NCBI GenBank assembly: GCA_965222575.1
Contig: OZ244958.1
Coordinates: 128,001-192,000 of the forward strand
DNA: 64,000 nucleotides
Reading direction: 5' to 3'
Source of the DNA: Alphaproteobacteria bacterium
GTDB taxonomy: Bacteria > Pseudomonadota > Alphaproteobacteria > G965222575
Shown here: positions 1 to 64,000 of the stretch, one piece after another
Numbering within the stretch: position 1 is the first letter of the stretch
Layout of the letters: every line of letters begins with the position of its first letter
The notes under the pieces: generated by a model
What the model was told of the DNA's origin: nothing
Databases searched by the model: none
What the model saw: only the letters and a program-made list of their open reading frames with translations
Made by a program: the position numbers and the translations under genes

Positions 1-669
1 CGGAATCCCACACGCCCAAAGCGACCCTAGTCCAGAAATAGGCACAAGACACACCTCTTCTCCTAAGGCCTTCTCAAAAATAGACACACTCCTATATAAC
101 CTCGAATCATACCCTACCCTCACCCCCTTCTTCTTCCCGCGTGCCCACGCCTTCAACCCCGACGCAATACGCGATTTGTCCTCAAGTCTATACACCGCCG
201 TATCAACTTCCCTCGAAGCCTGAAGTGCGTAACGACCATCAATCCACAAAATCCTCTCGTCAACCCCCAATAACAATAAACCCGCACTCCCTCTAAATCC
301 CGTAAGCCATAAAATATGACGCTCACATAACGCCGGCCACTCCACCGAAAACTCTCCCCCCATAGACAATAAATACCCCTCCAACCCCTCCGCCTTTAAC
401 CACTCCAAAACACACGCAAGTCGCTCTGCATCCTCACGCCCCCCCTCCAAATCCCCCAACACCTGCTCCCTCTCCTCCTCCAAAAATGCCAACACCGCTT
501 CTTTCTCCTCCCTCCCCTTAAGAGACAATAAACGCTCCAATGCCTCCTCCCTCTTCTGAGGCACTTCACACAACGCGACACTGCGTAAAAAAAGCCACCA
601 GTCTCCACCACCCAAAGGAGGCAAGGACACAAGCTTCTTCTCAAGCAACTGCTTGCCAAAACTTGACAT
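1..669 (-). CDS. Xaa-Pro aminopeptidase (aminopeptidase P, M24B), N-terminal part; runs off window start
   Basis: Manual minus-strand translation from ATG at 669 (TAATG overlap with rmuC stop) gives ...RHILWLTGFRGSAGLLLLGVDERILWIDGRYALQASREVD, the creatinase-N motif of aminopeptidase P. Not in the ORF track because it is open-ended. Confidence 0.8.
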   Translation of the reverse strand, partial: MSSFGKQLLEKKLVSLPPLGGGDWWLFLRSVALCEVPQKREEALERLLSLKGREEKEAVLAFLEEEREQVLGDLEGGREDAERLACVLEWLKAEGLEGYLLSMGGEFSVEWPALCERHILWLTGFRGSAGLLLLGVDERILWIDGRYALQASREVDTAVYRLEDKSRIASGLKAWARGKKKGVRVGYDSRLYRSVSIFEKALGEEVCLVPISGLGSLWACGIP

Positions 670-1697
670 TAAGAAACCTTCTCCCGTACAGGGAATTCCT
701 TAGACGTTTTCACCCCCATAGCCCGTAGCTTATCCGCCTTCACTAACACATTGTCCTTCCCCTCAGCAAGATTCTTTAGCCCTTTCTCATAGGCTTCCTG
801 CGCCCCCTTCAAAGAACGACCCAACCCCCCATAATACTCCAAAAAGATACAAATCTTATCATACAGCTTGCCGCCTTCCTCTGTAATCTTAAGACTATAA
901 GCAACCCCTTGCGCCTGTTGCCACATTCTGCTCAACAACCCAAGCATAGCCATCAAAGAAAAGGGAGTCGCTAGAAAAACCTTATGCTTGCGCGCAAAAT
1001 CCAACAAAGAGTGATCCGTTTCTAACGCTAAACGCAACCCATGCTCTAACGGGAAAAATAGAATGGTTTCCCTCAAACTTGAAGAAGAAGAAGCCCCATA
1101 ATCCTTGCTCCCCAATGACCGAATATGAGACCTAAGAGACCCAACAAAACTCTCCAAAAACGCCCGCCGCTCGCTCTTATCTTTAGCATTGCTAAACCCA
1201 TAAAAAGATTTTAACGACACTTTCGAATCAATATAAACCCTCCCCTCCTCCGGTAAAAATAACACAACATCAGGCTTCAAATGACGCCCATCAGGCCCTT
1301 TCAGAGACAATCCCTCCCCTTGTAAAGCATAGTGCCTCCCCCTCACCAACCCAGCAGCTTGAAGAAGACCCTCTAACTGATATTCCCCCCACTGCCCCTG
1401 TACCAACCTATCTCCTTTAAGCGTCGTCAATAAAGACAGACTCCTCTCCTCAACCTTTAGTAACTGCTCTCTAATCATGGTTTGCTCACGCGTGGTATTG
1501 AGCGCAAAATCCTGAACCGTCCCACGAACAGACTCAAGTTGTGCCTGTAATGGCCCTAAAGCCTCTTTCACCTCCCGCCCTCTGTTATGCCTTGATGTCA
1601 CTTCTCCTTCCTTGCGCCACCTCAACTCTTGGTGCACAGCATTCACAACCAAAACCCCTAGTACCACCACCACCACTAAAAGCAACATCTCATTCAT
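669..1697 (-). CDS. rmuC: DNA recombination protein RmuC
   Basis: N-terminal TM helix, QGQWGEYQLE, KPDVVLFLP..IDSKVSL, HIRSLGSKDY motifs. Confidence 0.9.
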   Translation of the reverse strand: MNEMLLLVVVVVLGVLVVNAVHQELRWRKEGEVTSRHNRGREVKEALGPLQAQLESVRGTVQDFALNTTREQTMIREQLLKVEERSLSLLTTLKGDRLVQGQWGEYQLEGLLQAAGLVRGRHYALQGEGLSLKGPDGRHLKPDVVLFLPEEGRVYIDSKVSLKSFYGFSNAKDKSERRAFLESFVGSLRSHIRSLGSKDYGASSSSSLRETILFFPLEHGLRLALETDHSLLDFARKHKVFLATPFSLMAMLGLLSRMWQQAQGVAYSLKITEEGGKLYDKICIFLEYYGGLGRSLKGAQEAYEKGLKNLAEGKDNVLVKADKLRAMGVKTSKEFPVREKVS

Positions 1698-1710
1698 AGA
1701 AGAACCTCAA

Positions 1711-2763
<1,053 letters not shown>

Positions 2764-2887
2764 TCACCCGCCATCATCTCACTCGCATAAGTGACATTGC
2801 ACTCAGCACTCTCCTATACTAGTATAGTCATATCCTCCATCCAAGCCTCTATTTATTTATTCGCCACAGACTAATCACCCGCCTCAC

Positions 2888-3208
2888 ATGACCAATCAGA
2901 TAAAATCTCTCACAAAACTCCTCAAAGATAACCAGGGCCAAGACTTAATCCTCTTAAAACCCAGTAACGGTCTTTGCAAGTATATGCTCATTGCTTGTGG
3001 TACCTCTTCTACCCATGTCAAGTCCATTGCGGAAAAACTGATTCACTGGGCAAAACAGCACAACCATACCTCTCCTACTACTGAAGGATTACAACAGGGA
3101 CTTTGGGTCGTTGTGGATGTAGGGGAAACCTTGGTGCATGTTTTCCAAAGTGATGTGAGGGATTATTATCAATTAGACTCATTGTGGGACAAAGCCCCGT
3201 TGCCATGA
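2888..3208 (+). CDS. rsfS: Ribosome silencing factor RsfS (Iojap)
   Basis: IACGTSSTHVKSIAE, WVVVDVGETLVHVF..VRDYYQLDSLW. Confidence 0.92.
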   Translation: MTNQIKSLTKLLKDNQGQDLILLKPSNGLCKYMLIACGTSSTHVKSIAEKLIHWAKQHNHTSPTTEGLQQGLWVVVDVGETLVHVFQSDVRDYYQLDSLWDKAPLP

Positions 3209-4671
3209 AGCCTTGTATCCTGTGTATCTTAGATGGATGGGGCTGTGCAGAAGACTCCCCTCAGAATGCTATTCTCCGTGCTAAAACCCCTGCTTTCTCA
3301 CAATTCCAAGACCGCTATCCCTCCGCGACTTTGCTAACCCATGGGGAACATGTTGGACTCCCTAAAGGACAAGCCGGCAATTCTGAAGTCGGTCATATGA
3401 CCATAGGGGCCGGACGACTCATCATCCAAGACTTAACAAGAATCTCTTCAACTCTTAGTAACGTCAAAAAAGACCGGCACGCTCTCCCCTTTTTACAGCG
3501 CTTTCGCAATGCTCCCTGTCATATCATTGGACTCCTTTCCCGCGGCGGGGTGCATGCACACATAGACCATATCCTTGCACTTTGCCACCTCCTCAATGCC
3601 TGTGGTACCAAAGTACTATTACACGGCATACTCGATGGACGGGATACACAACCTTGCGTCTCAAAAGAGGACATCCCTGCTTTTCTCAAGCAACTGCCAG
3701 CAAACACAAGCCTAGTCACTCTCTCAGGACGATTCTTCGCCATGGATAGAGACAACCGCTGGGAACGAACACAGAAAGCCTTTGAAGCCATGGCTTACGG
3801 AATAGGCCAACACTGTTCCTTAGAAATTGCCCTTAAGCAAGCCCAGAACACAGGAGATGAGTTCCTCCACCCTTGTGTCCTCAATCCACTTTATCAGGGC
3901 ATTCTTGACCATGAGGGACTCCTCATGGCCAACTTCAGAACCGATCGAATCAAACAACTGCTAAAACCTCTCTATCAAAGCAACTTTCAACACTTTAAGA
4001 GAAAACACCAGCCTCTTCTTTCTCGCGCCTGCTCCCTTTCTCCTCTGGACGACCCTAACCTCACTGCAATCACCCCTCTTTTCCCCTTTCAACCCCCAAA
4101 AAATACCTTAGGGCATCTCTTAAGCCAACAGAACACTCAACAGCTACGACTCGCCGAAACAGAAAAATTTCCCCATGTTACATTCTTCTTCAATGGACGA
4201 CAACAAGACCCTTTCAAAGGAGAACACCGACTGATCATCCCTTCCCCTTCTGTCCCTACTTACGACTTAGCCCCTAAAATGTCCGCCATGGCTATCGCTA
4301 CTGCCGCTCAAAAAGCCCTCAACAAAAAATCCTTCTCTTTCCTCCTCATCAATTTCGCCAACCCAGACATGGTCGGGCATACGCAAAACCTCAACGCTAC
4401 CATCCAAGCCGTTCAAGCCGTGGACCAAGCCCTCAACAAAATCATCTCCGCTGCACATCAACACCACGCAAGTCTCATCGTCACCGCTGACCACGGTAAC
4501 GCCGAAGACCTCTCTACACCCGCTCACTCTTGCTCCCCAGTCCCCATCATTATCAAACATAACCTCATCTCATCCCTTAAAAATGGTTCCCTGCAAGACA
4601 TCGCTCCTACTGTGCTCAAAATCATGAATCTCAACACACCACAAGAAATGACCGGAACCCCTTTGTTCTAA
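3205..4671 (+). CDS. gpmI: 2,3-bisphosphoglycerate-independent phosphoglycerate mutase
   Basis: ILDGWG, GNSEVGH, DGRD, NFANPDMVGH, TADHGNAE; ATG at 3205 overlaps rsfS stop. Confidence 0.96.
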   Translation: MKPCILCILDGWGCAEDSPQNAILRAKTPAFSQFQDRYPSATLLTHGEHVGLPKGQAGNSEVGHMTIGAGRLIIQDLTRISSTLSNVKKDRHALPFLQRFRNAPCHIIGLLSRGGVHAHIDHILALCHLLNACGTKVLLHGILDGRDTQPCVSKEDIPAFLKQLPANTSLVTLSGRFFAMDRDNRWERTQKAFEAMAYGIGQHCSLEIALKQAQNTGDEFLHPCVLNPLYQGILDHEGLLMANFRTDRIKQLLKPLYQSNFQHFKRKHQPLLSRACSLSPLDDPNLTAITPLFPFQPPKNTLGHLLSQQNTQQLRLAETEKFPHVTFFFNGRQQDPFKGEHRLIIPSPSVPTYDLAPKMSAMAIATAAQKALNKKSFSFLLINFANPDMVGHTQNLNATIQAVQAVDQALNKIISAAHQHHASLIVTADHGNAEDLSTPAHSCSPVPIIIKHNLISSLKNGSLQDIAPTVLKIMNLNTPQEMTGTPLF

Positions 4672-4765
4672 AAAAATACTTGCTTATCTCCGCATTCTCT
4701 ATACAATACACAATACTTAAGACAAGAAAAAAAACCCTCCTAACCCACAGCACTCATAAGCTTTC

Positions 4766-6064
4766 ATGAACAAGACTTTCCTCTCTCAAGGCCTCCTTTT
4801 TCTTCTCCCCCTCTTCTTGCTCTCCTCTCCCTCTTTCGGAGAAGAACGCGAACTCGACCTCAGTGCAGAAGACAAAACCTTGATACAAAAAACAATCAAC
4901 ATCGCTGAAGAATTCTACCACCTCTCCGTCAACAAAAATCATATGATTAAAAAGGGCGCTATCAGAGTCGTCGAACATATCGATACCCATAACCTTTTTC
5001 TAGAAAACGCCCTACAAAAGGAAATCAAACGAAACAAAGGCATTGGCATCGTTTTCGCCTTTGAGAAAGGCAATTCCTATCTTGAAGTCCTGACCGTTTA
5101 TCCCGGCTCTTCCGCTCACGAAGCCGGACTTAAAGCCGGCAACATTATCTGGCGTATACAAGGACTCTCCATCTCATCATACACCTCCAGACAACACATC
5201 TTAAAAGCCCTCACAGGACAAAATAAACAGGTCATTTCCCTTGCCATCTACGAAGACAGAAACTTCCTCACCCGTAAACAAGTAAAAGTCACTGTAGGAA
5301 AATTAGGCATTCCCATCTCCATCTGTAAACCTATACAGGATAATGTCTTGTACATTAAATACCAAACATTCCAAAAAGGGGATGCAGACCTTCTCACGAA
5401 ATGTCTTCAAAAACATTCCTATAAAGGGATTCTCTTTGACCTCAGAGAAACCGCAGGCGGACAAACAGAGGAAACCTTAAAAATAACAGACCTCTTTCTC
5501 AACAAAGGGCAACAACTGCTCACCCTAGAATTCAATGATGGCGAAACAAAATCCTACCGCTCTCAAACCGCCGCCGCTGCCCCCCAAGTGCCCCTCGTAT
5601 TGCTCATCTCTCACACCACCGCCTTCTCAGGAGAACTCATAGCAGGTATCCTCAAACACCAAAACCGCGCCACCCTCATGGGGAGCAAAACCATGGGACA
5701 AGGAAGCTTCCAACAAAGCTTCCCCCTAGACCAAAACTATACCCTCCTCCTCACAACCGCTTGGTTCCAACTCCCAAATAAACAATGGATAAAAGATGGC
5801 ATCCTCCCCCATATCTCCATTAAGCCGCATGATGAAACCCTCATTATCAAAGATTTCCTACCAGATAAACCAGATGACGATACCCTCCTCGCTAGAAAAC
5901 ACGCCATAGACAAAACACATCTTCCACACACAGAAGACTCAATAAGCCAAAATAAACTACAAGAACACATCCTTCAACAAAAAACCCTCAAAATCGGAGG
6001 GAAAATTGACAATACCCTACAAAGAGCCTTAGACCTCATCAACTCTTTAGCAACCCTAAACTAA
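4766..6064 (+). CDS. S41 family (CtpA-like) PDZ protease paralogue, predicted catalytically inactive
   Basis: Signal peptide, PDZ (GIGIV..YPGSSAHEAGLKAG), S41 motifs altered to TAFSGE and TMGQG. Confidence 0.8.
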   Translation: MNKTFLSQGLLFLLPLFLLSSPSFGEERELDLSAEDKTLIQKTINIAEEFYHLSVNKNHMIKKGAIRVVEHIDTHNLFLENALQKEIKRNKGIGIVFAFEKGNSYLEVLTVYPGSSAHEAGLKAGNIIWRIQGLSISSYTSRQHILKALTGQNKQVISLAIYEDRNFLTRKQVKVTVGKLGIPISICKPIQDNVLYIKYQTFQKGDADLLTKCLQKHSYKGILFDLRETAGGQTEETLKITDLFLNKGQQLLTLEFNDGETKSYRSQTAAAAPQVPLVLLISHTTAFSGELIAGILKHQNRATLMGSKTMGQGSFQQSFPLDQNYTLLLTTAWFQLPNKQWIKDGILPHISIKPHDETLIIKDFLPDKPDDDTLLARKHAIDKTHLPHTEDSISQNKLQEHILQQKTLKIGGKIDNTLQRALDLINSLATLN

Positions 6065-6067
6065 ATA

Positions 6068-7429
6068 ATGCCCCCCATGAAACCACTGCTTCAACTCCTC
6101 GTACTAGCACCCCTTATCCTCTCTGTGTCATCCCTCACGGCAGAAACCTTCGATTCTCCCCTTGACTTACAAAAAGTCATGTCCATTGTACAAAAACATT
6201 ACGTTCAGCCTCAAAAAAGCCATGAAATCACCGTCATCGCCCTCAATGGCATGCTGTCTTCTCTGGATAGATACTCCACCTATTTAGAAAAAATGGACTT
6301 GGAAAATAAAAATATTCGCACCTTTGGACAATTCGGCGGTATCGGGTCAACAGTACGGCACATCGGGGGCTTTGTACACCTAGAGAAAATCTATGAAAAC
6401 GCCCCAGCAGATAAAGCTAACCTGAAAAATGGAGACTTCATCACCGCCATTGACGGCAACACTCTCCTTAAGTTGTCCTTTGAAGAGGCCTTAAATCTTA
6501 TTCGCGGTAAACCGGGCTCAACTATCACCCTTTCTATCTTTCGTCCCTCTGAAATCGACCCCGAAAAACAAAACTTTAATGTGGATATCACACGAGAACT
6601 TGTCAAAATTTCCGCTATTAATAAATACTACAGCCTAGATAATGATGTGCTGTATATCAAAGTCAACAGCTTTAGTGCACGCGTCACACAAGACCTAAAA
6701 AACGCCCTTGAAGCCTTAATCACTTCTCATCCTCTCTACAAAGGATTAATCCTAGACCTGCGAGGCAACCCGGGCGGACTCTTAAATGAAGCCGTTGCCC
6801 TAGCCGATCTCTTCATACAACAGGGACTCATCGTAAGCGCTGTTTATAAACCTAGGGGGCGTACCCAGACACGCGAGTACACCGCAACTTACGGCGACCT
6901 TATTAAGGGAAAACCCCTTGTCGTACTCATTGACAACAGAAGTGCTAGTGCTTCTGAGCTTATCAGCGCGGCTTTCAAAGACAATAAACGCGCCATCATC
7001 ATGGGTACCCCCTCCTTTGGAAAAGGACTCATCCAACAAGCTATCCCCGTGGGAAAAAATCAATCCATCTCCATCACCGTAGGAGAATACTTTTCTCTCC
7101 AACGCTACTCTCTCAACAAAAAAGGCATTGTGCCTGACATCTTAGTGGATATCAATAAAACAATTCTTGATAACAACAACAAGCCTATTACCTTAGTCAA
7201 AGACAAAATGGAGGAAATTCCTCTGGAGTTGCGCAAAACTCTCTCTCCTGACAAACTTTCCTCCTACGAAACAAACATCAAAACCCTCATTTTGAAAGAA
7301 GAAGACTATAAGGCAAAACTTGAACAAGGCGAAGATGCACAAATCCTCGTAGAGGATTATCTCCTGCACAGAGCCGCAAACCTCGTTGAAAGTCTCAGAG
7401 CTCTTCAACTCCAAGAACAAACTCCTTAA
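6068..7429 (+). CDS. ctpA: Carboxyl-terminal processing protease (S41)
   Basis: FGGIG PDZ, LDLRGNPGG, SASASE, SFGKG. Confidence 0.92.
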   Translation: MPPMKPLLQLLVLAPLILSVSSLTAETFDSPLDLQKVMSIVQKHYVQPQKSHEITVIALNGMLSSLDRYSTYLEKMDLENKNIRTFGQFGGIGSTVRHIGGFVHLEKIYENAPADKANLKNGDFITAIDGNTLLKLSFEEALNLIRGKPGSTITLSIFRPSEIDPEKQNFNVDITRELVKISAINKYYSLDNDVLYIKVNSFSARVTQDLKNALEALITSHPLYKGLILDLRGNPGGLLNEAVALADLFIQQGLIVSAVYKPRGRTQTREYTATYGDLIKGKPLVVLIDNRSASASELISAAFKDNKRAIIMGTPSFGKGLIQQAIPVGKNQSISITVGEYFSLQRYSLNKKGIVPDILVDINKTILDNNNKPITLVKDKMEEIPLELRKTLSPDKLSSYETNIKTLILKEEDYKAKLEQGEDAQILVEDYLLHRAANLVESLRALQLQEQTP

Positions 7430-7628
7430 GACCCCACAGCACCCCCCCCTTCCCCCTTCCCCCTTCCTGCCTCCCCTTCCTTTTTATTGGCTTTATTGGC
7501 AGGGCTTATCACAGGACACTTGCAAAATCCCATACTATGAGACCCCCCCTTCAGTTGGTGAGACTTACAGCACCAACAAAGAGGAGTGTGTATGAGAGAG
7601 AGACCCCTTCAATTGAGGGCTTGTCGGC

Positions 7629-9389: not shown

Positions 9390-9844
9390 GAGGAAACCCT
9401 CTCTTGCCATTGCATATGCTGCCACACTAAAAAAGAGACATAAAGAAAAGACTTCTTAGCGATTTGCCAGCATTGACGCGCTCTTTGTAGGGTTTCCTGA
9501 TTATCAAAGCAACACCACACATCAAGTCCTAAAAGGGTAGCAGCCGTAAAATCCTCTTGAGAAGAAGGGGATATCAACACCAATTCCCGTGATTTTGTCA
9601 GTTGCTGAAAGTCCGTTATCAGAAGGCACGGGTGCCTATCTGAGGCGTTGTGATAAGTCCCATGGGGCAAAAAGACAGATTTTGAGAACGTCCAAAGGGC
9701 TTTATCTAAAACCATGAGCTCTTCATCTGTTTGTAGCTTAATAGCAAAGGGTGTTTTTTGTTTGAAGGCCCGCAACGCCAAGTTCGTCCAAATGTTGACA
9801 GGTTCTTCCTGATGGTACAGATAAAACGTGCAAGTTTTCTTCAC
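9386..9844 (-). CDS. holC: DNA polymerase III chi subunit
   Basis: LDKALWTF...FLPHG, ARQCW; directly downstream of pepA as is usual. Confidence 0.85.
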   Translation of the reverse strand: MKKTCTFYLYHQEEPVNIWTNLALRAFKQKTPFAIKLQTDEELMVLDKALWTFSKSVFLPHGTYHNASDRHPCLLITDFQQLTKSRELVLISPSSQEDFTAATLLGLDVWCCFDNQETLQRARQCWQIAKKSFLYVSFLVWQHMQWQERVSS

Positions 9845-9851
9845 GGCTCCC

Positions 9852-11342: not shown

Positions 11343-11503
11343 GAGGAATTTTTAAGTGTGTCTTGCGTTGGAAAAATACTGCTACTGCCTTACAGTAGCC
11401 TTAAGAATAGTATAACAAGAGGGCAGGGGAAAGGAAAATTTTTTCGTGCATGTTAATAGGATTGGTGATATGCTCCTAAGTTAAGATAAGGGTGAGACAG
11501 GTT

Positions 11504-11812
11504 ATGGAAACGCTAGCCTTAATTTTTCATGTGATGATAAGTATCACGATGATTATTGCAATTATTTTGCAAAATCTAGACGTTTCTGGTGCCTTAGGCA
11601 TAGGGAACACGAATATAGGGTCAGGTGGGGTACGCGTTGATATGCCAACGAAGTTAACGGCATGGTTAGGGGTGCTGTTTTTTTGTACCTCTTTAGGCAT
11701 AGCGATGTTATCGGGAGGAAATCAAAGTTTGATACCGCCCGCACCGCCTAGTGTTCCGCAAGTCCCTCTTCCGGGTATTTCCTCTTCTGGTGAGGAAGGG
11801 TCTAGTTCGTGA
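11504..11812 (+). CDS. secG: Preprotein translocase subunit SecG
   Basis: Two TM helices, IILQ, KLTAWLGVLFF; upstream of pyrG. Confidence 0.85.
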   Translation: METLALIFHVMISITMIIAIILQNLDVSGALGIGNTNIGSGGVRVDMPTKLTAWLGVLFFCTSLGIAMLSGGNQSLIPPAPPSVPQVPLPGISSSGEEGSSS

Positions 11813-11846
11813 GGCAGGGAAGACTTGTCACCAACACTTCTGTGTA

Positions 11847-14871: not shown

Positions 14872-14877
14872 GGGGAA

Positions 14878-51615: not shown

Positions 51616-51731
51616 CTCAGAAAAACCCTATCTTATGGCGACTCTGTCCTCGGGAAAGTCCCGCACGAAGTCTATCACTCCTCTCTGTCCGTTGCGCGCG
51701 CGTAAGAAGAACCTGGTAGCCCTCTCTCTTA

Positions 51732-56408: not shown

Positions 56409-56646
56409 AATAAACCCTGACTTATAAATTTTTTATATTCCTTCCTAAACTTTAAACTAGCGTTAAAGTCTTGAGTAGCATAGCATATATCTTATATACA
56501 TCAACAACAAATACTTGGAATGTCAAGGAGATTTTTTGTCTTTTTGGGGGGGGTTGTCTCTTTGAATATGAGGGAAAATTGACAAGTTTGTGAAGAATGC
56601 TTTAGACTTTGGGTTGAGGATGTTAAGAGGAGGTATTGGAAGAGCA

Positions 56647-57582
56647 ATGAAGTTACTTGCGGGTTCATCTTTGACTGATTTTTCTCAACGGGTATCAGAG
56701 TTTTTAGGGGAGGCGTTAACGAAGGTAGAGTTACGGACTTTTTCAGATGGAGAAAGTTGTCCTGAAATTAAGGAAACGATACGTGGGGAGGATATTTTTA
56801 TTCTTCAGTCTACGGCGCCGCCTGTGAATGATCGGTTGATGGAGTTGTTGTTAATGATTGATGCGGCGAAGCGTGCTGGGGGTCGGTGTGTGACAGCGGT
56901 GATACCGTATTTTGGGTATGCGCGCCAAGACAGAAAGCTGTTGCCGAGGACGCCTATATCGGCGCGGTTAGTGGCTAATCTTTTGGAGACGGCCGGTGTC
57001 AATCGTGTCCTCACCATGGACTTACACGCAGTACAAATTCAGGGATTTTTCAACATTCCAGTGGATAATCTCTCGCCTATGCCAACCATGACAAAGCGGA
57101 TAAGAGAAACCTTTGGAGATTGCTCCTGTATGACGGTGGTGAGCCCTGATATAGGGGGAGTAAAACGGGCACGCGACCTAGCAAGCCTGCTCAATGTCCC
57201 CATTGGTATCGCGGATAAAAGGCGGGATATCAAAGGGCAGGCTCATATCATGCATATCATAGGGGATATTAAGGGGCGCGTGTGTCTTCTCACGGACGAT
57301 ATCATAGACAGCGCAAGCACCTTATGCAAAGTTGGAGAACGTCTTATGTCCATGGGGGCAAAGGCCTGTCATGCTTATGTGACGCATGGGTTATTGTCTG
57401 GCGAGGCCTTAGAGAGGATTGAAACTTCTCCCTTGCAATCTGTTGTCATCTCAGACACTATTGCTCAAAGGGAGGTGAGTGCTAAAATCCAGAGTGTCTC
57501 TGTTGCGCCGCTCATAGGAGAAGCGGTGCGGAGAATCTCCAGAGATTGTTCTGTTTCCTCGCTATTTCCGACTATTTCTTAA
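56647..57582 (+). CDS. prs: Ribose-phosphate pyrophosphokinase
   Basis: FSDGE, PYFGYARQDRK, DLHA.QIQGFF, VSPDIGG. Confidence 0.97.
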   Translation: MKLLAGSSLTDFSQRVSEFLGEALTKVELRTFSDGESCPEIKETIRGEDIFILQSTAPPVNDRLMELLLMIDAAKRAGGRCVTAVIPYFGYARQDRKLLPRTPISARLVANLLETAGVNRVLTMDLHAVQIQGFFNIPVDNLSPMPTMTKRIRETFGDCSCMTVVSPDIGGVKRARDLASLLNVPIGIADKRRDIKGQAHIMHIIGDIKGRVCLLTDDIIDSASTLCKVGERLMSMGAKACHAYVTHGLLSGEALERIETSPLQSVVISDTIAQREVSAKIQSVSVAPLIGEAVRRISRDCSVSSLFPTIS

Positions 57583-57593
57583 GGGTTAAAGTT

Positions 57594-58250
57594 ATGTCAC
57601 TCCTTACATTGACACTCAAGGCTCTTCCCAGAGAGCAAACAGGCAAGCGTGCCACAAAAGAGATACGCAACCGCGCTCTAGTGCCTGCTATCATCTACAG
57701 CAAAGGAGAAACCCCTTTACATATTTGTATAGAAGAAGGGCATTTAGGGAGCTATCTACGGACACCCGGCGTTGCGAGCAAGGTCTGTCATCTTGGCTAT
57801 CAGGACAAAACCATTACAGTTCTTCCTAAAGAGTTACAACGTCATGTGGTCACGGACAAGCCGTTACATTGTGATTTTATCCGCGTTGGGAAAGACACGA
57901 TGATAACCACTGCTGTGTCTGTGGTGTTTGAAAATGAAGACCAATCCATAGGATTAAAACGTGGGGGCGTCTTAAACATTGTGCGTCATACCATAGACCT
58001 TGTCTGTCCTGTGTATGAGATACCGCAAAACATTGCTGTGGATTTAACAGGGGCTGATATAGGATTTTCTGTTCATATGTCTCACCTAACCTTGCCCGAG
58101 GGGATACGACCTTCCATTACAGACAGAGACTTCACCATTGCTACCATTTCAGCACCTTCCGTTATCGAAGAGGAAGAAGAGGCACCAGAGGAGGAAGAAG
58201 AGGAGGGTGCTACTGACGATAAGGTGGAAGACAAAAAAGAGACCCCCTAG
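57594..58250 (+). CDS. rplY: 50S ribosomal protein L25/Ctc
   Basis: VPAIIY, LHCDF, GLKRGGVLN, acidic tail. Confidence 0.95.
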   Translation: MSLLTLTLKALPREQTGKRATKEIRNRALVPAIIYSKGETPLHICIEEGHLGSYLRTPGVASKVCHLGYQDKTITVLPKELQRHVVTDKPLHCDFIRVGKDTMITTAVSVVFENEDQSIGLKRGGVLNIVRHTIDLVCPVYEIPQNIAVDLTGADIGFSVHMSHLTLPEGIRPSITDRDFTIATISAPSVIEEEEEAPEEEEEEGATDDKVEDKKETP

Positions 58251-58255
58251 GTAAG

Positions 58256-58885
58256 ATGTCAACGGCGTATAGTCTTTGGGTAGGGCTTGGGAATCCCATA
58301 CCGCAATATATAGGGCAACGTCATAACATTGGGCAGCATCTCATTTCATCGTTTGCTTACCGACAGGGGAATCCGTCATTCAAGGAGAGTTTTTCGTCAT
58401 TAACCTGTACTATTGCGGTTCAATCTTTGCAGTCTATGAAGCTAATTTTGTTGTTGCCGCAGACACAGATGAATTTATCTGGTTACGCGGTGTTACAGGT
58501 GGTACATTTTTTCAAGATTCCCTTAGGTCGGGTGATTGTGTTTCATGATGATATAGATTTGCCGTTTGGCAAGGTGCGTCTGAAGCGTGGCGGAGAGGCC
58601 GGGGGACATAACGGTCTTTTGTCACTAGATGGGGCGTTATCCTCCTCTTCATATGCCCGTGTACGGTTAGGGATTGGTCGTGGGAGGGGAGAGATAGCCT
58701 CTTATGTTTTAAGTCCGTTTTCTCCTAAGGAGAAAGGACACCTAATAGCATGGACATCGGCTCTTTTGGAGTGTCTTCCGTCCCTTTTGTTTTTGTCAGG
58801 AGACCGTAGGGATATGGACATTTTCAGTTATTTTATGTCCACGATATCCCTTCGGTGTCCGCCGCCCTCTTGTTCTGTGGGATGA
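58256..58885 (+). CDS. pth: Peptidyl-tRNA hydrolase
   Basis: VGLGNP, RHNIG, MNLSG, HDDID, GGHNG. Confidence 0.95.
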   Translation: MSTAYSLWVGLGNPIPQYIGQRHNIGQHLISSFAYRQGNPSFKESFSSLTCTIAVQSLQSMKLILLLPQTQMNLSGYAVLQVVHFFKIPLGRVIVFHDDIDLPFGKVRLKRGGEAGGHNGLLSLDGALSSSSYARVRLGIGRGRGEIASYVLSPFSPKEKGHLIAWTSALLECLPSLLFLSGDRRDMDIFSYFMSTISLRCPPPSCSVG

Positions 58886-59949
58886 CAAGTTTGAGTTGCG
58901 CTCTTGTGGGGTTGCCGAATGTTGGCAAGTCTACCTTGTTCAACGCCCTCACGCAAAGCGCACTAGCCCAAACAGGCAACTATCCTTTTTGCACCATAAC
59001 CCCTCAAGAAGGGTCTGTCTTTGTGCAGGATGAGCGTCTTGAACAGATAGCAGTACACGCTGCCTCTGAGCGGGTTGTTCCAGCTACTCTACGATTTTGT
59101 GACATTGCTGGGCTTGTAAAAGGGGCGGCTTCAGGAGAAGGGCTAGGCAACCAGTTTTTAAGCCATATACGCGCATCGCAAGCCATACTACATGTGGTAC
59201 GATGTTTTACCGACCCAAACATTCCGCACATCCACGACAAAATTGACCCCCTAAGAGACATTGATATAGTGGAAACGGAACTGCTGCTATCAGATATGGA
59301 AAGTGCGGAAAAACACCTGAAGAAGGAAGCAAAGGGCAAGGAAGCACTACGGCAGGGATTAGAGAAATGTCTTGAGCAGCTTTCTCAAGGCATAGGGTTA
59401 GCGTCTCTCTCAATAGAGGAAAAAGCCCTTATCAAGCCTTTCGGGTTTTTGACAGTGAAGCCAGTTTTGTATGTGTGTAATGTAGCGGGAATGGCAGAGT
59501 CTGTAAGGATGAGGTGCGAGGTGGAATCTCTAGCGAAAAAAATAGGGGGCAGTGTTTTCGTCATTGCAGCAGAACTAGAAACGCAAATACTCCAGTTGCC
59601 TCCCTCAGAGCAAAAAGCCTTTTTACAAGATGAAGGGTTTCAAGAAAGCGGACTTAACCGCCTGATTAAGGCAGCCTACAGCCTGCTCTCTTTGCGCACA
59701 TTTTTCACCATAGACTCCAAAGAAACAAGAGCATGGACTATTAAAGACGGCCTAAGGGCAGAAGAAGCCGCTGGAAAAATACACACCGATTTTAAGTGCG
59801 GATTCATTAAAGCAGAAGTCATCTCCTATGAGCATTTCATCAAACACAATGGCCTGAAAGGTGCGAAATCCGCAGGACACTTAAGACAAGAAGGCAAAGA
59901 CTATCGCCTCCAAGAGGGAGACATTATACGCTTTCTCTTTAATGTCTAA
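58882..59949 (+). CDS. ychF: Redox-regulated ATPase YchF
   Basis: VGLPNVGKSTLFNALT, NYPFCTI, DIAGLV, FLFNV. Confidence 0.96.
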   Translation: MTSLSCALVGLPNVGKSTLFNALTQSALAQTGNYPFCTITPQEGSVFVQDERLEQIAVHAASERVVPATLRFCDIAGLVKGAASGEGLGNQFLSHIRASQAILHVVRCFTDPNIPHIHDKIDPLRDIDIVETELLLSDMESAEKHLKKEAKGKEALRQGLEKCLEQLSQGIGLASLSIEEKALIKPFGFLTVKPVLYVCNVAGMAESVRMRCEVESLAKKIGGSVFVIAAELETQILQLPPSEQKAFLQDEGFQESGLNRLIKAAYSLLSLRTFFTIDSKETRAWTIKDGLRAEEAAGKIHTDFKCGFIKAEVISYEHFIKHNGLKGAKSAGHLRQEGKDYRLQEGDIIRFLFNV

Positions 59950-59952
59950 CAC

Positions 59953-61075
59953 CTCCCCCCTGCCCTCTTTTCTCCCTCTAAAGCCTTCCCTCCTGCTCTC
60001 TTTTCTCCTCTAAAGTCCTCCCCCCTGCTCTCCTCCTCTGCTCTCTTTTCTCCTCTAAAGTCCTGCTTCCTCCTGCTCTCTTTTCTCCTCTAAAGTCCTC
60101 CCCCCTGCTCTCTGCCCTTTTTTCTCCCTCTAAAGCCTTCCCTCCTGCTCTCTTTTCTCCTCTAAAGCCTTCCCCCTGCTCTCTTTTCTCCTCTAAAGCC
60201 TTCCCTCCTGCTCTCTTTTCTCCTCTAAAGCCTTCCCCCCTGCCCTTTTTCTCCCCTAAAGTCCTGCTTCCTCCTTCTTTGAAGGCTTTGAGGGTTGTAG
60301 CCACCAGTAATTAATCAGACAAAGCGTTATCAAAAAGCCTCCCCTCCTGCCCTTTTTTCTCCCCTAAAGTCCTTCCCCCCTGCTCTCTTTTCTCCTCTAA
60401 AGCCCTCCCCCTGCTCTCTTTTCTCCTCTAAAGCCTTCCCTCCTGCTCTCTTTTCTCCTCTAAAGCCCTCCCTCCTGCTCTCTTTTCTCCCCTAAAGCCC
60501 TCCCCCTTGCTCTCTTTTCTCCTCTAAAGCCTTCCCCCCTGCCCTCTTTTCTCCTCTAAAGTCCTCCCCCCTGCCCTCTTTTCTCCTCTAAAGTCCTCCC
60601 CCCTGCTCTCTTTTCTCCTCTAAAGTCCTCCCCCCTGCCCTCTTTTCTCCTCTAAAGTCCTCCCCCCTGCTCTTTTTTCTCCTCTAAAGCCTTCCCCCCT
60701 GCCCTCTTTTCTCCTCTAAAGTCCTCCCCCCTGCCCTCTTTTCTCCTCTAAAGTCCTCCCCCCTGCTCTTTTTTCTCCCCTAAAGTCCTCCCCCCCTGCT
60801 CTCTTTTCTCCTCTAAAGCCTTCCCCCCTGCCCTTTTTTCTCCTCTAAAGCCTTCCCCCCTGCCCTTTTTTCTCCTCTAAAGCCTTCCCCCCTGCCCTTT
60901 TTTCTCCCCTAAAGTCCTCCCCCCTGCTCTCTTTTCTCCCCTAAAGTCCTCCCCCCTGCCCTTTTTTCTCCCCTAAAGCCTTCCCTCCTGCTCTCTTTTC
61001 TCCTCTAAAGCCTTCCCTCCTGCTCTCTTTTCTCCTCTAAAGCCTTCCCTCCTGCTCTCTTTTCTCCCCTAAAGT
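59953..61075. repeat. Pyrimidine-rich tandem array, ~32 copies of a ~30-bp unit (cctgctctcttttctcctctaaagccttcc) with an embedded 97-bp gene-end copy
   Basis: Read directly; 60248-60344 equals 61061-61157. Confidence 0.97.
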
Positions 61076-61605
61076 CCTGCTTCCTCCTTCTTTGAAGGCT
61101 TTGAGGGTTGTAGCCACCAGTAATTAATCAGACAAAGCGTTATCAAAAAGCCTCCCCCTGCTCCAAAGAAAAGGGCTTCCAAGAATTTCATCCCTCCTAA
61201 GAAGGCAGGAGGCGCCCATATAAGCCCTAGAAACAAAAAGAAAACAAACAAGAGTAAAAAAAGCGGTAAAGGAAGCATCCACCAAGCAGACCTGCCTACA
61301 TCCCGTAGCCGCTTGATACCAAGCATAATCTGCCAATACAGGATAAAGGGCGATAAACTAGAGACGCCTATAAAAGGCAAGTCATTCAATAAAATGTGAA
61401 AGAAAGCAATAAGAGGTGATAAAAACGTGAGATTCAGAGCGGCTGCATTGGTCTCAACCATTCCTAAAAACCCGAGGAATAAGTATCCGCCTATTATAAG
61501 AAAGGTTAAAATCCAAAAAGGGGTGCGCTTTAATCGTCCTTTACACCACCAAAGCTGCCCGAAATACCATGGAGCGGTTTCAAGAAAGGTCTTGAGAAAG
61601 TTCAT
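61069..61605 (-). CDS. DUF805 family inner membrane protein
   Basis: KGRLKRTPFW, IKRLRDVGRSAWW. Confidence 0.85.
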   Translation of the reverse strand: MNFLKTFLETAPWYFGQLWWCKGRLKRTPFWILTFLIIGGYLFLGFLGMVETNAAALNLTFLSPLIAFFHILLNDLPFIGVSSLSPFILYWQIMLGIKRLRDVGRSAWWMLPLPLFLLLFVFFLFLGLIWAPPAFLGGMKFLEALFFGAGGGFLITLCLINYWWLQPSKPSKKEEAGL

Positions 61606-61761
61606 GGGGTTACTCCTTGAGTGTTTCAGTACCTTAAGTATAGTACTCTCCTTGTTAGTGTTTGACCAGTCAAGGGGGCTTTTTTTTTAGCAATCCATTC
61701 TAAGGGCTCTGTCTGGTATATGACTAAAGAGCTTATGATGACCTTAGAGGCGTCTGTTCTG

Positions 61762-63606
61762 TTAATCCACTGTGACGGATTTCGCGAGGTTTCTGGGTTT
61801 ATCCACATTTAGTCCTTTGTGCAAGGCAGTGTGGTATGCTAGGAGTTGCAGGAAGGGTGCCATAATGAGGGGTTGTGTCAAGAGATTGCCTTTTGGGAGA
61901 GGAAAGAGAGAGAGATTAGAGAGGTCATGCTGAAAGGTTTCAGGTTGGTCGGAGACGAGGAGGATTTTGCCGCCTCTTGCTTGTGCTTCTTTGAGGTTAG
62001 CGCGAATTTTTTCGCTACTGCCTGTTCCTTCTAGGACAATGACGGGATAGTTTTTTTGCAGGAGTGCGATGGGGCCGTGTTTCATTTCGCCGGCGGGCAG
62101 GCCTTCTGCGTGGATATAAGAGAGTTCTTTGAGTTTTAGGGCACCTTCTAGGGCTAGGGGGTAAAAGATGCCCCGCCCCAAGAATAAGGTATGTTGGGCT
62201 TTATGCAGGAAGGTTTCGGCAAGTGTTTTGATACGATGTTGTTGTGAGATGACGGCTTTGATGTGCGCTGTGCTTTTTTTAATGGAGTTGAGGTAAGTTT
62301 GGAGTTGTGTGCGGGATATTGTTCCTATGGAGTAGGCGTACCAGCACGTGAAGACAGCTAGAGCGGTTAATTGCGCGGTAAAAGACTTGGTACTAGCGAC
62401 AGCGATTTCTTGTCCGGCTTCTGTGAGGATGAGTCCATGGGCTTCGTTGGCCATTTGGCTTTGTGGCACATTGGTGATGACGATACAGGTTTGTCCAGCG
62501 GCTTTACACAGGCGTAAGGAGTGGAGGGTATCGGCTGTTTCGCCGGATTGTGAGACAAAGACTGTCCAGCCATTTTTGAGGAGGGGGGTAGGGGTGAAGC
62601 GGAATTCGCTAGCCATTTCCACGGCTATTTCCCTATGAGCTAGGTGAGCGAACCAGTATTTTGCGCACAAAAGGGCATGATAGGAGCTACCGCATCCTAC
62701 CATGGTGAGGGTAGCGGGGATGGAGGAAGGGGGAGCGGGGGGTTTTAAGAGGGTATTGAGCAGGGGGAGGAAGGGAGGGGGGTGGAGGGTATGGAGTGTA
62801 CGTTTTATAATTGTTGGTTGTTGGAAAATTTCTTTGAGCATGTAGTGCTTGAATCCCTTTTTTTGGGAGCTTTTCATTGTTATAACCGTAAGAGGGGGTA
62901 TCGTTCTTGGTCCTTTTTCTCCCATGATATCCACATGGTTTGGGGATAAAATAGCCATATCTGATGGCTTGAGGACGCGGACGCTTTCATGGAGGGTTGC
63001 AGCAGTATAAGGGTCGGAAGCGAGGAGGGATTTTTTGTCATGACAAGCGACAACTAGAGGGCATCCTTTTTGTAAGCCAAAGATTGTGTCTGGCATATTA
63101 GCAAAGAGTACCGCAATGGCAAAGTCTCCTTTTATGGTTTTTCTGAGATTAGAGATAGCCTCTTGTGGGGTCATACCTTCTTGTAAAGAAAGGTCTAGAA
63201 GGTGTGCAATAATTTCTGTATCGGCTTGGGTATGGAAGGAGTAGTGGTGGTTTTGCAAGTGTTGTTTGAGGTCTTGATAGTTATCCACAATGCCGTTATG
63301 CACGACGGCACAAGAAGGGGTTTTAAGATTTCGTCCACCGAAGTGAGGATGGGCATTACGAACAAAAGGTTTGCCATGAGTAGCCCATCTGGTGTGTCCA
63401 AGACCGATCTGTCCTTTCAGTGGTCGTGTTTTGAGAAGAGCCACGAGTTTATCAACTTTTCCCACGGCGCGACGACGTTGTAAAACGCCCGCATTTAAGA
63501 CAGCAAGTCCAGCGGAGTCATAGCCTCTATACTCCAAACATTTCATACCCTTAAGAATGGTTGGCACAACATTGCCCTGCCCTAGTATTGCGAAGATGCC
63601 ACACAT
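61762..63606 (-). CDS. glmS: Glutamine--fructose-6-phosphate aminotransferase
   Basis: MCGIF, EYRGYDSAG, GHTRWATHG, SQSGET, PRNLAKSVTV. Confidence 0.98.
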   Translation of the reverse strand: MCGIFAILGQGNVVPTILKGMKCLEYRGYDSAGLAVLNAGVLQRRRAVGKVDKLVALLKTRPLKGQIGLGHTRWATHGKPFVRNAHPHFGGRNLKTPSCAVVHNGIVDNYQDLKQHLQNHHYSFHTQADTEIIAHLLDLSLQEGMTPQEAISNLRKTIKGDFAIAVLFANMPDTIFGLQKGCPLVVACHDKKSLLASDPYTAATLHESVRVLKPSDMAILSPNHVDIMGEKGPRTIPPLTVITMKSSQKKGFKHYMLKEIFQQPTIIKRTLHTLHPPPFLPLLNTLLKPPAPPSSIPATLTMVGCGSSYHALLCAKYWFAHLAHREIAVEMASEFRFTPTPLLKNGWTVFVSQSGETADTLHSLRLCKAAGQTCIVITNVPQSQMANEAHGLILTEAGQEIAVASTKSFTAQLTALAVFTCWYAYSIGTISRTQLQTYLNSIKKSTAHIKAVISQQHRIKTLAETFLHKAQHTLFLGRGIFYPLALEGALKLKELSYIHAEGLPAGEMKHGPIALLQKNYPVIVLEGTGSSEKIRANLKEAQARGGKILLVSDQPETFQHDLSNLSLFPLPKGNLLTQPLIMAPFLQLLAYHTALHKGLNVDKPRNLAKSVTVD

Positions 63607-63609
63607 AGC

Positions 63610-64000
63610 TTATGGTTTTTTTGAGGGCTTCAAATATTTTTTCGCTGCCCCTTTCAGGGTTTTTTGTTCTGTGCGCCCAACGGCTAAGGCATTTTCAGGA
63701 ACATTCTTAGTGAGGACGCTACCCGCTGCCGTAAGCGCCCCGCGCCCTATCCGTAAAGGGGCTAAGAGCGTTGAAGAAGCCCCAATAAAAGCACCCGCTC
63801 CAATATGCGTCTGATGCTTATGCCGCCCATCATAATTACAAGTAATCACGCCCGCACCAACGTTGACATTCCCTTCTATTGTTGCATCGCCTAAATAGGA
63901 CAAATGAGACACCTTAGTATTAGCACCTAAGACAGTGTTTTTCACCTCGACAAAATTTCCAATGCGCCCCTGTTTTTTGATTCTACTATCAGGTCTCACG
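63610..64000 (-). CDS. glmU: Bifunctional GlmU, C-terminal acetyltransferase part (partial)
   Basis: IGNFVEVK, HLSYLGDA, ITCNYDG; upstream of glmS. Confidence 0.95.
   Translation of the reverse strand, partial: VRPDSRIKKQGRIGNFVEVKNTVLGANTKVSHLSYLGDATIEGNVNVGAGVITCNYDGRHKHQTHIGAGAFIGASSTLLAPLRIGRGALTAAGSVLTKNVPENALAVGRTEQKTLKGAAKKYLKPSKKP

What the first reader, a model, noticed from the sequence alone, without database searches (positions are those of the whole stretch)
1..64000. Saw-tooth G/C skew that resets every few kb, independent of coding strand
Seen: the + strand alternates between extreme C-rich and extreme G-rich stretches. Two minus-strand genes show opposite extremes: 13921-13980 has 31 G/4 C, and 25981-26040 has 33 C/2 G. 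Plus-strand genes do the same (gpmI 3' part is C-rich, prs 5' part is G-rich). Abrupt C-to-G jumps occur near 11400, 13490, 33500, 35180, 42740, 47525, 56550, 58255 and 61620, each followed by a gradual drift back to C-rich. In coding terms, transcription units start G-rich and end C-rich, strongly enough to bias proteins (Gly/Val-rich PgpA; Pro/His/Thr-rich ORF 13501). Established: single-origin bacterial chromosomes keep one skew sign per replichore, and saw-tooth profiles are associated with dispersed initiation or local strand-specific mutation. Inference: an unusual local strand-asymmetric process operates here, such as many priming/restart sites, R-loop-initiated replication, or positioned nicking/resection.
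Basis: partly seen in the sequence, partly recalled or inferred. Interest (0 to 1): 0.7.

Follow-up and report, generated by a model that had tools for sequence, protein, structure and literature searches.

The report
Patchwork of extreme DNA strand bias
This small bacterial genome carries an unusually strong mutation-driven imbalance between its two DNA strands, broken into kilobase patches whose edges sometimes fall inside intact essential genes, which ordinary replication and inversion models do not fully explain.

Summary
The skew is stronger at silent sites than overall. Per-gene 4-fold GC skew reaches ±0.8-0.9, and 253 of 743 genes exceed 0.5, against 1/81, 1/10 and 3/219 in three same-class control genomes. 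It is therefore mutational, not an amino-acid effect.

Genome-wide there are two ordinary replichores, switching near 575 kb and 1,145 kb. dnaA, rnhA and priA are all present.

On top of this lies a step mosaic of strong, neutral and reversed patches. At silent sites, up and down steps are equally frequent and equally sharp, with no systematic drift. This is not an origin-type saw-tooth.

The saw-tooth look comes from coding-strand G excess plus a weak 5'→3' decline. Four of the nine named jumps sit at divergent gene pairs.

One reversed block is a Mu-like prophage remnant. However, 31 of 300 long genes hold an internal switch, against 1 of 273 in the controls. These include infB, sdhA and truB-pnp.

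Best guess: DNA movement and allelic replacement scrambled a very strong replication bias. Positioned in-situ mutagenesis is not excluded. This scan noted similar mosaics in other genomes.

The parts
1..7653 (.). Block A: + strand strongly C-rich at silent sites (4-fold GC skew -0.68), in genes of both strands (rmuC, mreB on -; rsfS, gpmI and two S41 peptidases on +). Concordant with this replichore.
7659..13415 (.). Block B: near-neutral silent-site skew (-0.14 to -0.03). Holds a 598-aa ORF, holC, pepA and pyrG. The left edge is the convergent gap 7429-7629, which is also a polymorphic indel spot where read contigs break.
13442..20702 (-). Block C: reversed skew (+0.64); coding strand C/A-rich; proteins shifted towards Pro/His/Thr. 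It is a truncated Mu-like prophage: late activator, head protease, virion protein, major head protein, adaptor, Neck1/tail completion and a tape-measure fragment. No terminase, portal or transposase was found.
   Evidence: The left edge at the pyrG/ORF13501 junction is bridged colinearly by contigs of 3 runs from 2 studies.
20705..23834 (.). Transition block (+0.20): a repressor-like ORF (21105-21713, +) and two ORFs of a multi-copy family (22096-23132). Partial copies lie at genome 272-273 kb and 388-389 kb.
23843..61351 (.). Block D: weakly C-rich on average (-0.20, then +0.05), but a fine patchwork of 1-4 kb runs at third codon positions. Adjacent same-strand genes differ by up to 1.0 in 4-fold skew (ppiase +0.46 then nth -0.56; prs +0.38, rplY -0.19, pth +0.41, ychF -0.12).
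11342..11751 (.). Divergent gene pair pepA(-)/pyrG(+). All-site C-to-G jump of 0.74, with no jump at 4-fold sites (+0.10).
42725..42773 (.). Divergent gene pair. All-site jump 0.84; 4-fold jump +0.70.
47520..47530 (.). Divergent pair guaB(-)/icd(+). All-site jump 0.36; 4-fold jump +0.03.
56408..56590 (.). Divergent pair, 1558-aa ORF(-)/prs(+). All-site jump 0.76; 4-fold jump +0.57. The prs 5' part holds a 200-bp run with K3 +0.74.
59952..61149 (+). Two arrays of a 32-nt pyrimidine-rich repeat (about 10 and 23 copies), each followed by an identical 80-nt tail. They cause the -0.66/-0.77 skew dip and lie just left of the block E edge.
61363..63391 (-). Block E: glmS with reversed skew (+0.71; coding strand C-rich). 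It is the first part of a mostly positive stretch that runs on to genome 224.5 kb (+0.20, then +0.57).
25651..26124 (-). pgpA-like ORF. Holds the 33 C/2 G stretch on the + strand; the protein is Gly/Val/Trp-rich.

Best explanation

(1) Shown: a very strong mutation pressure of the single-strand deamination type. At silent sites one strand loses C (to 4-11%) and A, and gains G (40-53%) and T. Over the whole chromosome this pressure follows replication direction. The + strand is C-rich from about 1,145 kb through 0 to about 575 kb, where the window lies, and G-rich from 575 to 1,145 kb.

(2) The pattern is shown; its cause is inferred. The record is cut into kilobase patches that are strong, neutral or reversed, with sharp edges in both directions. 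I infer that most patches carry a bias acquired in another place or orientation and were brought in by DNA movement:
- insertion, as with the Mu-like prophage remnant at 13.4-20.7 kb;
- rearrangement of blocks, as with the 35-kb reversed stretch starting at glmS;
- replacement of part of a gene by a differently biased allele through homologous recombination, for the many edges inside intact genes.

(3) Shown: the usual G excess of coding strands (first codon position +0.23) plus a weak 5'→3' fall of coding-strand G/T at silent sites. These add C-to-G jumps at gene starts, largest at divergent gene pairs. This gives the saw-tooth look in raw sequence.
For: Layer 1:
- All eight 4-fold codon families shift together with the regional skew; for GCN the G share runs from 0.16 to 0.75.
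- Composition of the G-rich strand is given. In infB codons 151-525, third positions are almost only G or T.
- Intergenic skew follows the flanking 4-fold skew (r=0.60).
- Cumulative skew has its minimum at 573-577 kb and its maximum at 1,145 kb.
- 504 of 860 genes, plus rpoB, rpsJ and the 23S rRNA gene, are co-directional with that layout.
- Local 4-fold skew explains 53% (window) and 66% (genome) of the variance of 500-bp all-site skew. Gene strand alone explains 0% and 8%.

Layer 2:
- Segmentation gives 56 coarse segments against 0 change points in 3 shuffles, and 101 change points at the finer setting.
- Steps are symmetric and sharp.
- Third-position state totals: left replichore 265 kb concordant, 303 kb neutral, 65 kb reversed; right replichore 283, 277 and 15 kb.
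- Block C is phage-derived.
- Step support intervals contain a gene boundary hardly more often than chance (64 of 101 v 56±4). That fits recombination end-points better than inversion breakpoints.
- A second sample of the same organism differs at 9 sites within 387 bp (10845-11231), against about 1 per kb elsewhere. That looks like an imported tract, and its left end is 3 bp from a patch edge.
- Two tuf-sized copies are kept 99.6% identical.

Layer 3.
Against: - No relative closer than the same class is held, so no donor, inversion or shared gene order could be shown.
- Alleles with opposite saturated silent-site bias would be very divergent, which makes homologous exchange hard.
- The infB patch edges lie in poorly conserved linkers, not in conserved motifs.
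- The best DNA match to the infB patch among 400 sampled genomes of the class is 73% over 263 nt.
- None of the 13 long-range repeat pairs brackets a reversed block as an inverted pair.
- The three largest reversed blocks of the left replichore hold mostly minus-strand genes (1+/16-, 5+/20-, 7+/18-). On the inversion reading, these blocks would earlier have been about 80% head-on, which is unusual.
- About half of each replichore is neutral, which demands very many events.
- The single 16S gene is head-on to the inferred fork direction.
- Differences between the two samples in block C are A/G on the + strand (4 isolated plus 2 clustered, and no T/C). This fits either decay or active upkeep of the reversed bias.
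Confidence: 0.42

Rival explanations
1. In-situ, position-specific strand exposure. In each patch one particular strand is persistently more single-stranded, through stable R-loops from sense or antisense transcripts, recurrent gaps or re-priming zones, or positioned resection. Deamination then keeps that patch biased where it lies. Neutral patches would be those where both strands are exposed equally.
For: - Patches are saturated and have sharp edges inside intact genes: 31 of 300 long genes here, against 0/89, 1/97 and 0/87 in the controls.
- Amino-acid composition has followed the local bias, so the patches are old.
- A G/T-rich non-template strand, as in the infB and truB-pnp patches, favours R-loops and could reinforce itself (inference).
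- Coding-strand G/T falls with distance from the gene start.
- Third-position up-steps are enriched within 60 bp of gene boundaries (68 of 231 v 15% expected by chance), while down-steps are not (33 of 245).
- AT-rich, -10-like words carry small positive steps.
Against: - About as many patches have the template strand G/T-rich (prophage block, glmS, mutS, the 3' part of sdhA) as the coding strand. Averaged over genes the coding strand is slightly C-rich (coefficient -0.07), so sense transcription cannot be the general cause.
- rnhA is present.
- No sequence word marks the switch points.
- No physical cause for edges fixed to within about 50 bp is known.
- No RNA data exist to test for antisense transcripts.
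Confidence: 0.3
2. Dispersed or multiple replication initiation. Each C-to-G jump is an initiation site and each decline a zone of random termination, as in the N-shaped skew domains of mammalian genomes.
For: - In all-site data abrupt up-jumps outnumber down-jumps 45 to 25.
Against: - At 4-fold sites up and down steps are equal in number, size and sharpness, and segments have no consistent slope.
- A clear two-replichore pattern exists.
- dnaA, priA and rnhA are present.
- Patch sizes of 1-3 kb and switches inside genes do not fit replication units.
- 13 of the 45 up-jumps sit at divergent gene pairs, where coding-strand effects explain them.
Confidence: 0.04
3. Selection on codons or amino acids (translational selection, purine loading of mRNA) produces the local skew.
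For: - There is a coding-strand preference for G/T at third positions of about +0.1.
- Some K3 runs also appear in two controls, at 16-20 per 100 kb.
Against: - The sign follows the region, not the coding strand.
- All eight 4-fold families shift together.
- Intergenic DNA shares the skew.
- Highly expressed genes disagree with each other: tuf +0.4 to +0.75, rplKAJL -0.2 to -0.55.
- Switches occur inside genes.
Confidence: 0.03
4. Assembly artefact: a chimeric or mis-joined assembly of two strains or organisms.
For: The genome comes from an uncultured source, and read contigs break at 7.56-7.63 kb and 21.8-22.8 kb, which are repeat or indel spots.
Against: - Independent contigs run colinearly across the 13.49 kb jump. 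One of 12,630 bp (0 differences) and one of 12,785 bp (23 differences) come from two runs. A 799-bp contig with 0 differences comes from a second study.
- The switches lie inside intact open reading frames of conserved proteins.
Confidence: 0.02

Closest known systems
Replication-associated strand compositional asymmetry (Lobry-type GC/AT skew; G+T-rich leading strand, ascribed to deamination of single-stranded DNA)
   Same: Two skew switches about half a chromosome apart. The bias sits at silent and intergenic sites. G>C and T>A fall on the same strand. The majority of genes and rpoB, rpsJ and 23S are co-directional.
   Different: The amplitude is far larger: 4-fold skew reaches 0.9 here. Passages of PMC9836097 that I read give about ±0.03 in 10-kb windows for typical Alphaproteobacteria. 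Only about half of each replichore carries the bias, in kb patches, some reversed, with edges inside genes.
Local skew reversal read as a record of gene inversion (Merrikh and Merrikh 2018, PMC6220195; abstract read)
   Same: Segments whose skew disagrees with their replichore, for example block C and the glmS block.
   Different: Here 31 of 300 long genes switch internally, within conserved operons (infB-truB-pnp; rplKAJL-rpoB) that are intact. An inversion cannot do this without breaking the gene.
Whole-chromosome G/C disparity of the Microgenomates bacterium Ch65 (PMC7143001; passages read)
   Same: A small genome with a very large G v C difference between strands (29.8% C v 15.0% G), independent of gene strand.
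   Different: In Ch65 one sign runs along the whole chromosome, and unidirectional replication was proposed. Here there are two replichores plus a fine mosaic.
Strand asymmetry of vertebrate mitochondrial DNA (G+T-rich heavy strand from C-to-T and A-to-G deamination while single-stranded; abstract listing of PMC3269015 seen, the rest recalled)
   Same: The same chemical signature and similar saturation at silent sites.
   Different: In mitochondria the bias grades smoothly with time spent single-stranded. Here it changes in steps.
N-shaped skew domains of mammalian genomes (recalled, not read here)
   Same: The raw-sequence impression of abrupt upward jumps followed by declines.
   Different: Not seen at silent sites here.

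Membership tests
Replication-associated strand asymmetry | Skew changes sign at two points roughly opposite on the chromosome | tested here: met
   Cumulative skew minimum at 573-577 kb and maximum at 1,145 kb, in both 4-fold and all-site data
Replication-associated strand asymmetry | Bias present at silent and non-coding sites, independent of gene strand | tested here: met
Replication-associated strand asymmetry | One skew sign throughout each replichore | tested here: not met
   47% of codons are in the neutral state; 65 kb (left) and 15 kb (right) are reversed; 56-102 segments
Inversion record (local skew reversal) | Edges of the reversed segment lie between genes, and gene order or orientation differs from relatives | tested here: inconclusive
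   Some edges are at gene junctions (13.49 kb, 61.4 kb). Many are inside intact genes. Gene order in relatives is not testable because none is closer than class level.
Multi-origin saw-tooth (N-domain) skew | Abrupt upward jumps and gradual linear declines at neutral sites | tested here: not met
   Up 54 v down 47, equal size and sharpness; slopes 35 negative v 21 positive, none of the negative ones significant
Origin-independent (R-loop primed) replication through loss of rnhA or dnaA | Absence of RNase HI, DnaA or PriA | tested here: not met
   All three found above the family cut-off
Transcription-associated strand asymmetry | Sign of the bias follows the coding strand | tested here: not met
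   Opposite-strand neighbours share the + strand skew (r=+0.56); gene-strand coefficient -0.07
Transcription-associated strand asymmetry | Bias decays with distance from the start of the transcription unit | tested here: met
   K3 0.137 to 0.046 (p=5e-16); 4-fold skew 0.029 to -0.060. Weaker in two controls (falls of 0.044 and 0.032) and slightly reversed in the third (-0.019).
Prophage or island compositional anomaly | The anomalous block holds phage or mobile genes | tested here: met
   True for block C only: major head protein 2.5e-93, head protease, Neck1, late activator. Not true for blocks A, D and E, or for the infB, sdhA and pnp patches.
   Mean step at GGCC is -0.032; no 4-6-mer exceeds 0.06

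The most novel reading that the evidence does not exclude
A so far undescribed, position-specific and strand-specific mutational process keeps kilobase patches of the chromosome, including parts of single essential genes, in one of three stable states: one strand exposed, the other strand exposed, or both. The mosaic would then be maintained where it lies rather than inherited from past rearrangements. Other agents of this scan noted similar keto/amino patchworks in unrelated archaea, a planctomycete and another small symbiont genome, so it could be a general but overlooked feature of prokaryotic mutagenesis.
Probability: 0.3. Interest if true: 0.85.

Novelty: new variant of a known kind. Interest (0 to 1): 0.62.

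Why it matters
Strand bias is the standard tool for locating origins, inferring inversions and modelling bacterial mutation.

Here the bias is strong enough to rewrite codon choice and amino-acid content. It also switches inside intact genes, which an inversion alone cannot produce without breaking the gene.

- If the patches are imported alleles, this genome records very extensive exchange between lineages with different chromosome layouts.
- If they are maintained in place, they point to an unknown local source of single-strand damage.

Either way, per-gene skew cannot be read here as an inversion record. The organism would be a good natural system for studying deamination-driven genome evolution.

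Tried and rejected
- Exact optimal segmentation timed out. I used binary segmentation instead.
- Long-range repeats as inversion mediators: 13 pairs of at least 200 bp, at least 85% identity and more than 20 kb apart. None brackets a reversed block.
- DnaA-box clusters (consensus recalled from memory): the best cluster, 5 boxes, is at 121 kb. None lies at the skew minimum, so this is uninformative.
- Close relatives for gene order or divergence: 30 relatives, all only same class. Of 48 metagenome loci, all have at most 56% PyrG identity. An earlier-findings look-up on this genome and on look-alikes returned nothing.
- Direction of recent mutation from seven 90-96% identical modules: only 40 singleton changes (C>T 8 v G>A 6; A>G 6 v T>C 7), so no power.
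- Direction from the second sample (X2) with X3 as a third lineage: 9 sites are covered, but the root is unknown, so polarity is ambiguous.
- No RNA holder was listed among the public runs.
- Word scan of all 4-6-mers for a step in third-position bias: nothing above 0.06, and GGCC gives -0.032.
- Donor search for the infB patch in 400 sampled genomes of the class: best match 73% over 263 nt.
- Endonuclease V was not found. It also gave no match in 7 of the 14 control genomes, including Caulobacter, so this is not diagnostic.
- UDG, MutS and MutL are present, so no obvious repair loss explains the strength of the bias.
- Literature: four text searches found no description of intragenic strand-bias mosaics in bacteria. 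This covers only the open-access library that was searched.

Full report
**Setting.** The window is bases 128,001-192,000 of a single-contig genome of 1,215,846 bp with 46% G+C.
- The gene content is proteobacterial (IHF, holC, lolCDE, fused ispDF).
- The 16S and 23S rRNA genes are unlinked.
- Among about 200,000 species genomes, nothing closer than the same class is held.
- A metagenome scan with PyrG found only hits of at most 56% identity (48 loci).
- I called 1,057 ORFs crudely (longest non-overlapping ORFs, 91% coverage). All silent-site statistics use these calls.

**Checking the observation.**
- Both 60-nt counts are exact: 31 G/4 C and 33 C/2 G. The maximum G-C excess in 60 nt is ±36, against +15..26 and -19..-27 in 200 shuffles.
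- All-site skew in 500-bp windows spans -0.77 to +0.66.
There it is stronger, not flatter.
- Window genes 1-7429 have + strand 4-fold skew of -0.39 to -0.83 on either strand. Genes 13501-20776 have +0.22 to +0.78. glmS has +0.68.
- Genome-wide, 253 of 743 genes exceed |0.5|. The figures for 400-kb samples of three same-class genomes are 1 of 81, 1 of 10 and 3 of 219.
- All eight 4-fold codon families shift in parallel.
- Intergenic DNA follows the flanking silent-site skew (r=0.60, n=286).
- Neighbouring genes on opposite strands share the + strand skew (r=+0.56), so their coding-strand skews are opposite (r=-0.61).
- The bias is therefore mutational and regional, and it does distort proteins.

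**Chemistry.**
- On the G-rich strand of strongly skewed segments, the 4-fold sites hold G 0.40-0.53, T 0.27-0.34, A 0.15-0.20 and C 0.04-0.11.
- Neutral segments hold about 0.2-0.3 of each base.
- In infB codons 151-525, third positions are almost only G or T.
- This G+T versus A+C pattern is what C-to-T and A-to-G deamination of one exposed strand would give. That reading rests on established knowledge and is not tested here.
- UDG, MutS, MutL and RNase HI are present. Endonuclease V was not found, but half of the control genomes lack it too.

**Global layer.**
- Cumulative skew has one minimum (573-577 kb) and one maximum (1,145 kb).
- 504 of 860 genes are co-directional with an origin at the minimum, as are rpoB, rpsJ and 23S. 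The single 16S gene is not.
- dnaA (at 69.7 kb) and priA are present.
- The chromosome thus looks like a normal two-replichore one. The window lies in the half whose + strand is C-rich.

**Mosaic layer.**
- Replichore identity explains only 25% of the variance in gene skew.
- Binary segmentation of the 82,910 G/C 4-fold sites gives 56 segments (median 10.6 kb), against no change point in three shuffles.
- A laxer penalty gives 101 change points, against 54 when sites are shuffled within the coarse segments.
- In the window the blocks are: -0.68 (to 7.65 kb), about 0 (7.66-13.4 kb), +0.64 (13.44-20.7 kb), +0.20 (to 23.8 kb), -0.20 and +0.05 (to 61.35 kb), +0.71 (glmS), then +0.20.
- A five-state model on G/T versus A/C at all third positions (K3) finds 477 runs, against 1 in shuffled data, and about 33 in the window.
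- K3 totals are 265/303/65 kb concordant/neutral/reversed in the left replichore and 283/277/15 kb in the right.
- Two controls also show runs, at 16-20 per 100 kb against 39 here, presumably following gene strand. The run count alone is therefore not special.

**Is it a saw-tooth?**
- At silent sites it is not. Up and down steps number 54 and 47, with median sizes 0.56 and 0.60. Averaged profiles are flat on both sides and change within one 15-site bin.
- Of 56 long segments, 35 slope down and 21 up. None of the downward slopes reaches p<0.01.
- Increment counts are symmetric (124 v 118; 52 v 49).
- In all-site data, abrupt up-jumps do outnumber down-jumps (45 v 25 at Δ>0.6).
- 13 of those 45 are at divergent gene pairs. 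Such pairs are 144 of 1,056 gene junctions.
- The cause is ordinary. Coding strands carry a G excess at first codon positions (+0.23).
- In addition, coding-strand G/T at silent sites falls along genes and operons. K3 goes from 0.137 to 0.046 (p=5e-16), and 4-fold skew from 0.029 to -0.060.
- Two controls show a weaker fall (0.044 and 0.032), and the third shows none.
- Read on the + strand, this gives a decline through genes of either orientation and a jump at the next start.
- Of his nine jump points, four are divergent pairs. Six also show a 4-fold rise of +0.47 to +0.73, and three show none.
- The dip at 60-61 kb is a pair of 32-nt repeat arrays.

**What are the patches?**
- Block C is a truncated Mu-like prophage: major head protein 2.5e-93, head protease, Neck1, late activator and a tape-measure fragment. 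Its left edge is the 10-bp gap after pyrG.
- The glmS edge follows the repeat arrays and opens a 35-kb mostly positive stretch.
- Such blocks fit insertion or rearrangement of DNA that acquired its bias elsewhere.
- Many of the sharpest steps, however, lie inside single intact genes. Their support intervals are 18-200 bp wide.
- These genes are infB (a 1.1-kb patch at +0.82 between flanks at about -0.2), truB through pnp, sdhA, and lepA next to mutS. All were confirmed by Pfam.
- rpoB drifts from -0.15 to +0.35.
- An internal K3 switch (LLR>12, Δ≥0.5) occurs in 31 of 300 genes of at least 400 codons. There are 0 after shuffling codons within genes, and 0/89, 1/97 and 0/87 in the controls.
- Step intervals contain a gene boundary barely more often than chance (64 of 101 v 56±4).
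- Inversions cannot place edges inside working genes. Homologous replacement by differently biased alleles can.
- There is a sign of such exchange. A second sample of the organism (X2) differs at 9 sites within 387 bp, against roughly 1 per kb elsewhere, and the cluster starts 3 bp from a K3 edge.

**Difficulties with that reading.**
- No donor is known. The best DNA match to the infB patch among 400 sampled class genomes is 73% over 263 nt.
- Oppositely saturated alleles would be too divergent for easy recombination.
- The infB patch edges lie in poorly conserved linkers.
- No inverted repeats bracket the blocks.
- The big reversed blocks are about 80% minus-strand genes.
- Half of each replichore is neutral.
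- The alternative is that each patch is kept in its state where it lies, by some positioned exposure of one strand. This cannot be excluded.
- Differences between samples in block C are all A/G on the + strand. That fits either upkeep or decay, because the root is unknown.
- Sense transcription cannot be the general cause, because the template strand is the G/T-rich one in about as many patches as the coding strand.

**Artefact check.**
- Contigs assembled independently from public runs cross the 13.49 kb jump colinearly. They are 12,630 bp with 0 differences, 12,785 bp with 23 differences, and 799 bp from a second study.
- The first two runs share a study, and one may be the source sample.

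**Comparison and novelty.**
- The global layer is classical replication-associated asymmetry at an exceptional amplitude.
- Passages of PMC9836097 give about ±0.03 for typical Alphaproteobacteria.
- A published unusual case, Ch65, has a whole-strand skew of 0.33 but a single sign (passages of PMC7143001).
- Reading local reversals as inversions (abstract of PMC6220195) fails here for the intragenic switches.
- Four text searches found no description of such intragenic mosaics.
- Other agents of this scan noted similar patchworks in unrelated genomes. These notes are unchecked and are not independent evidence.
- I class the finding as a new variant of a known kind.

**Verdict.**
- My best explanation has confidence 0.42, and the in-situ rival 0.30.

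Noticed in passing
window 59952-61149: Two arrays of a 32-nt pyrimidine-rich unit (about 10 and 23 copies), each followed by an identical 80-nt tail. They are found nowhere else in the genome. There are no spacers, so this is not CRISPR-like. Function unknown.
   Followed up: partly
whole genome (G000): GATC is strongly avoided: 640 copies, observed/expected 0.17. GGCC (0.40) and ACGT (0.51) are also low. This may reflect restriction avoidance.
   Followed up: no
G000 587119-588622 and 426721-429471: The 16S and 23S rRNA genes are single-copy and 160 kb apart. The 16S gene is head-on to the replication direction inferred from skew.
   Followed up: no
G000 41.7-61.8 kb: Seven copies of a 1.2-2.9 kb module, 90-96% identical, inside long + strand ORFs in a neutral-skew block.
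   Followed up: partly
window 10845-11231: Nine differences between the window and a second sample (X2) within 387 bp of pepA, against about one per kb elsewhere. This is probably a recombination tract, and it begins 3 bp from a third-position patch edge.
   Followed up: partly
window 7429-7629: This convergent intergenic gap at the block A/B edge is polymorphic between samples, with 9- and 12-nt deletions and a 64-nt skip carrying 4 replacement letters. Read contigs break there.
   Followed up: no
window 22096-23132; G000 272.0-273.5 kb and 388.5-389.3 kb: Two small ORFs of a multi-copy family (85-94% identical pieces elsewhere) lie next to the prophage remnant. No family match was found.
   Followed up: no
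G000 241100-242395 (L081:7100-8395): A YscD-like type III secretion inner-membrane component in this 1.2-Mb genome.
   Followed up: no
window 51732-56408: A 1558-aa minus-strand ORF with no NCBIfam match.
   Followed up: no
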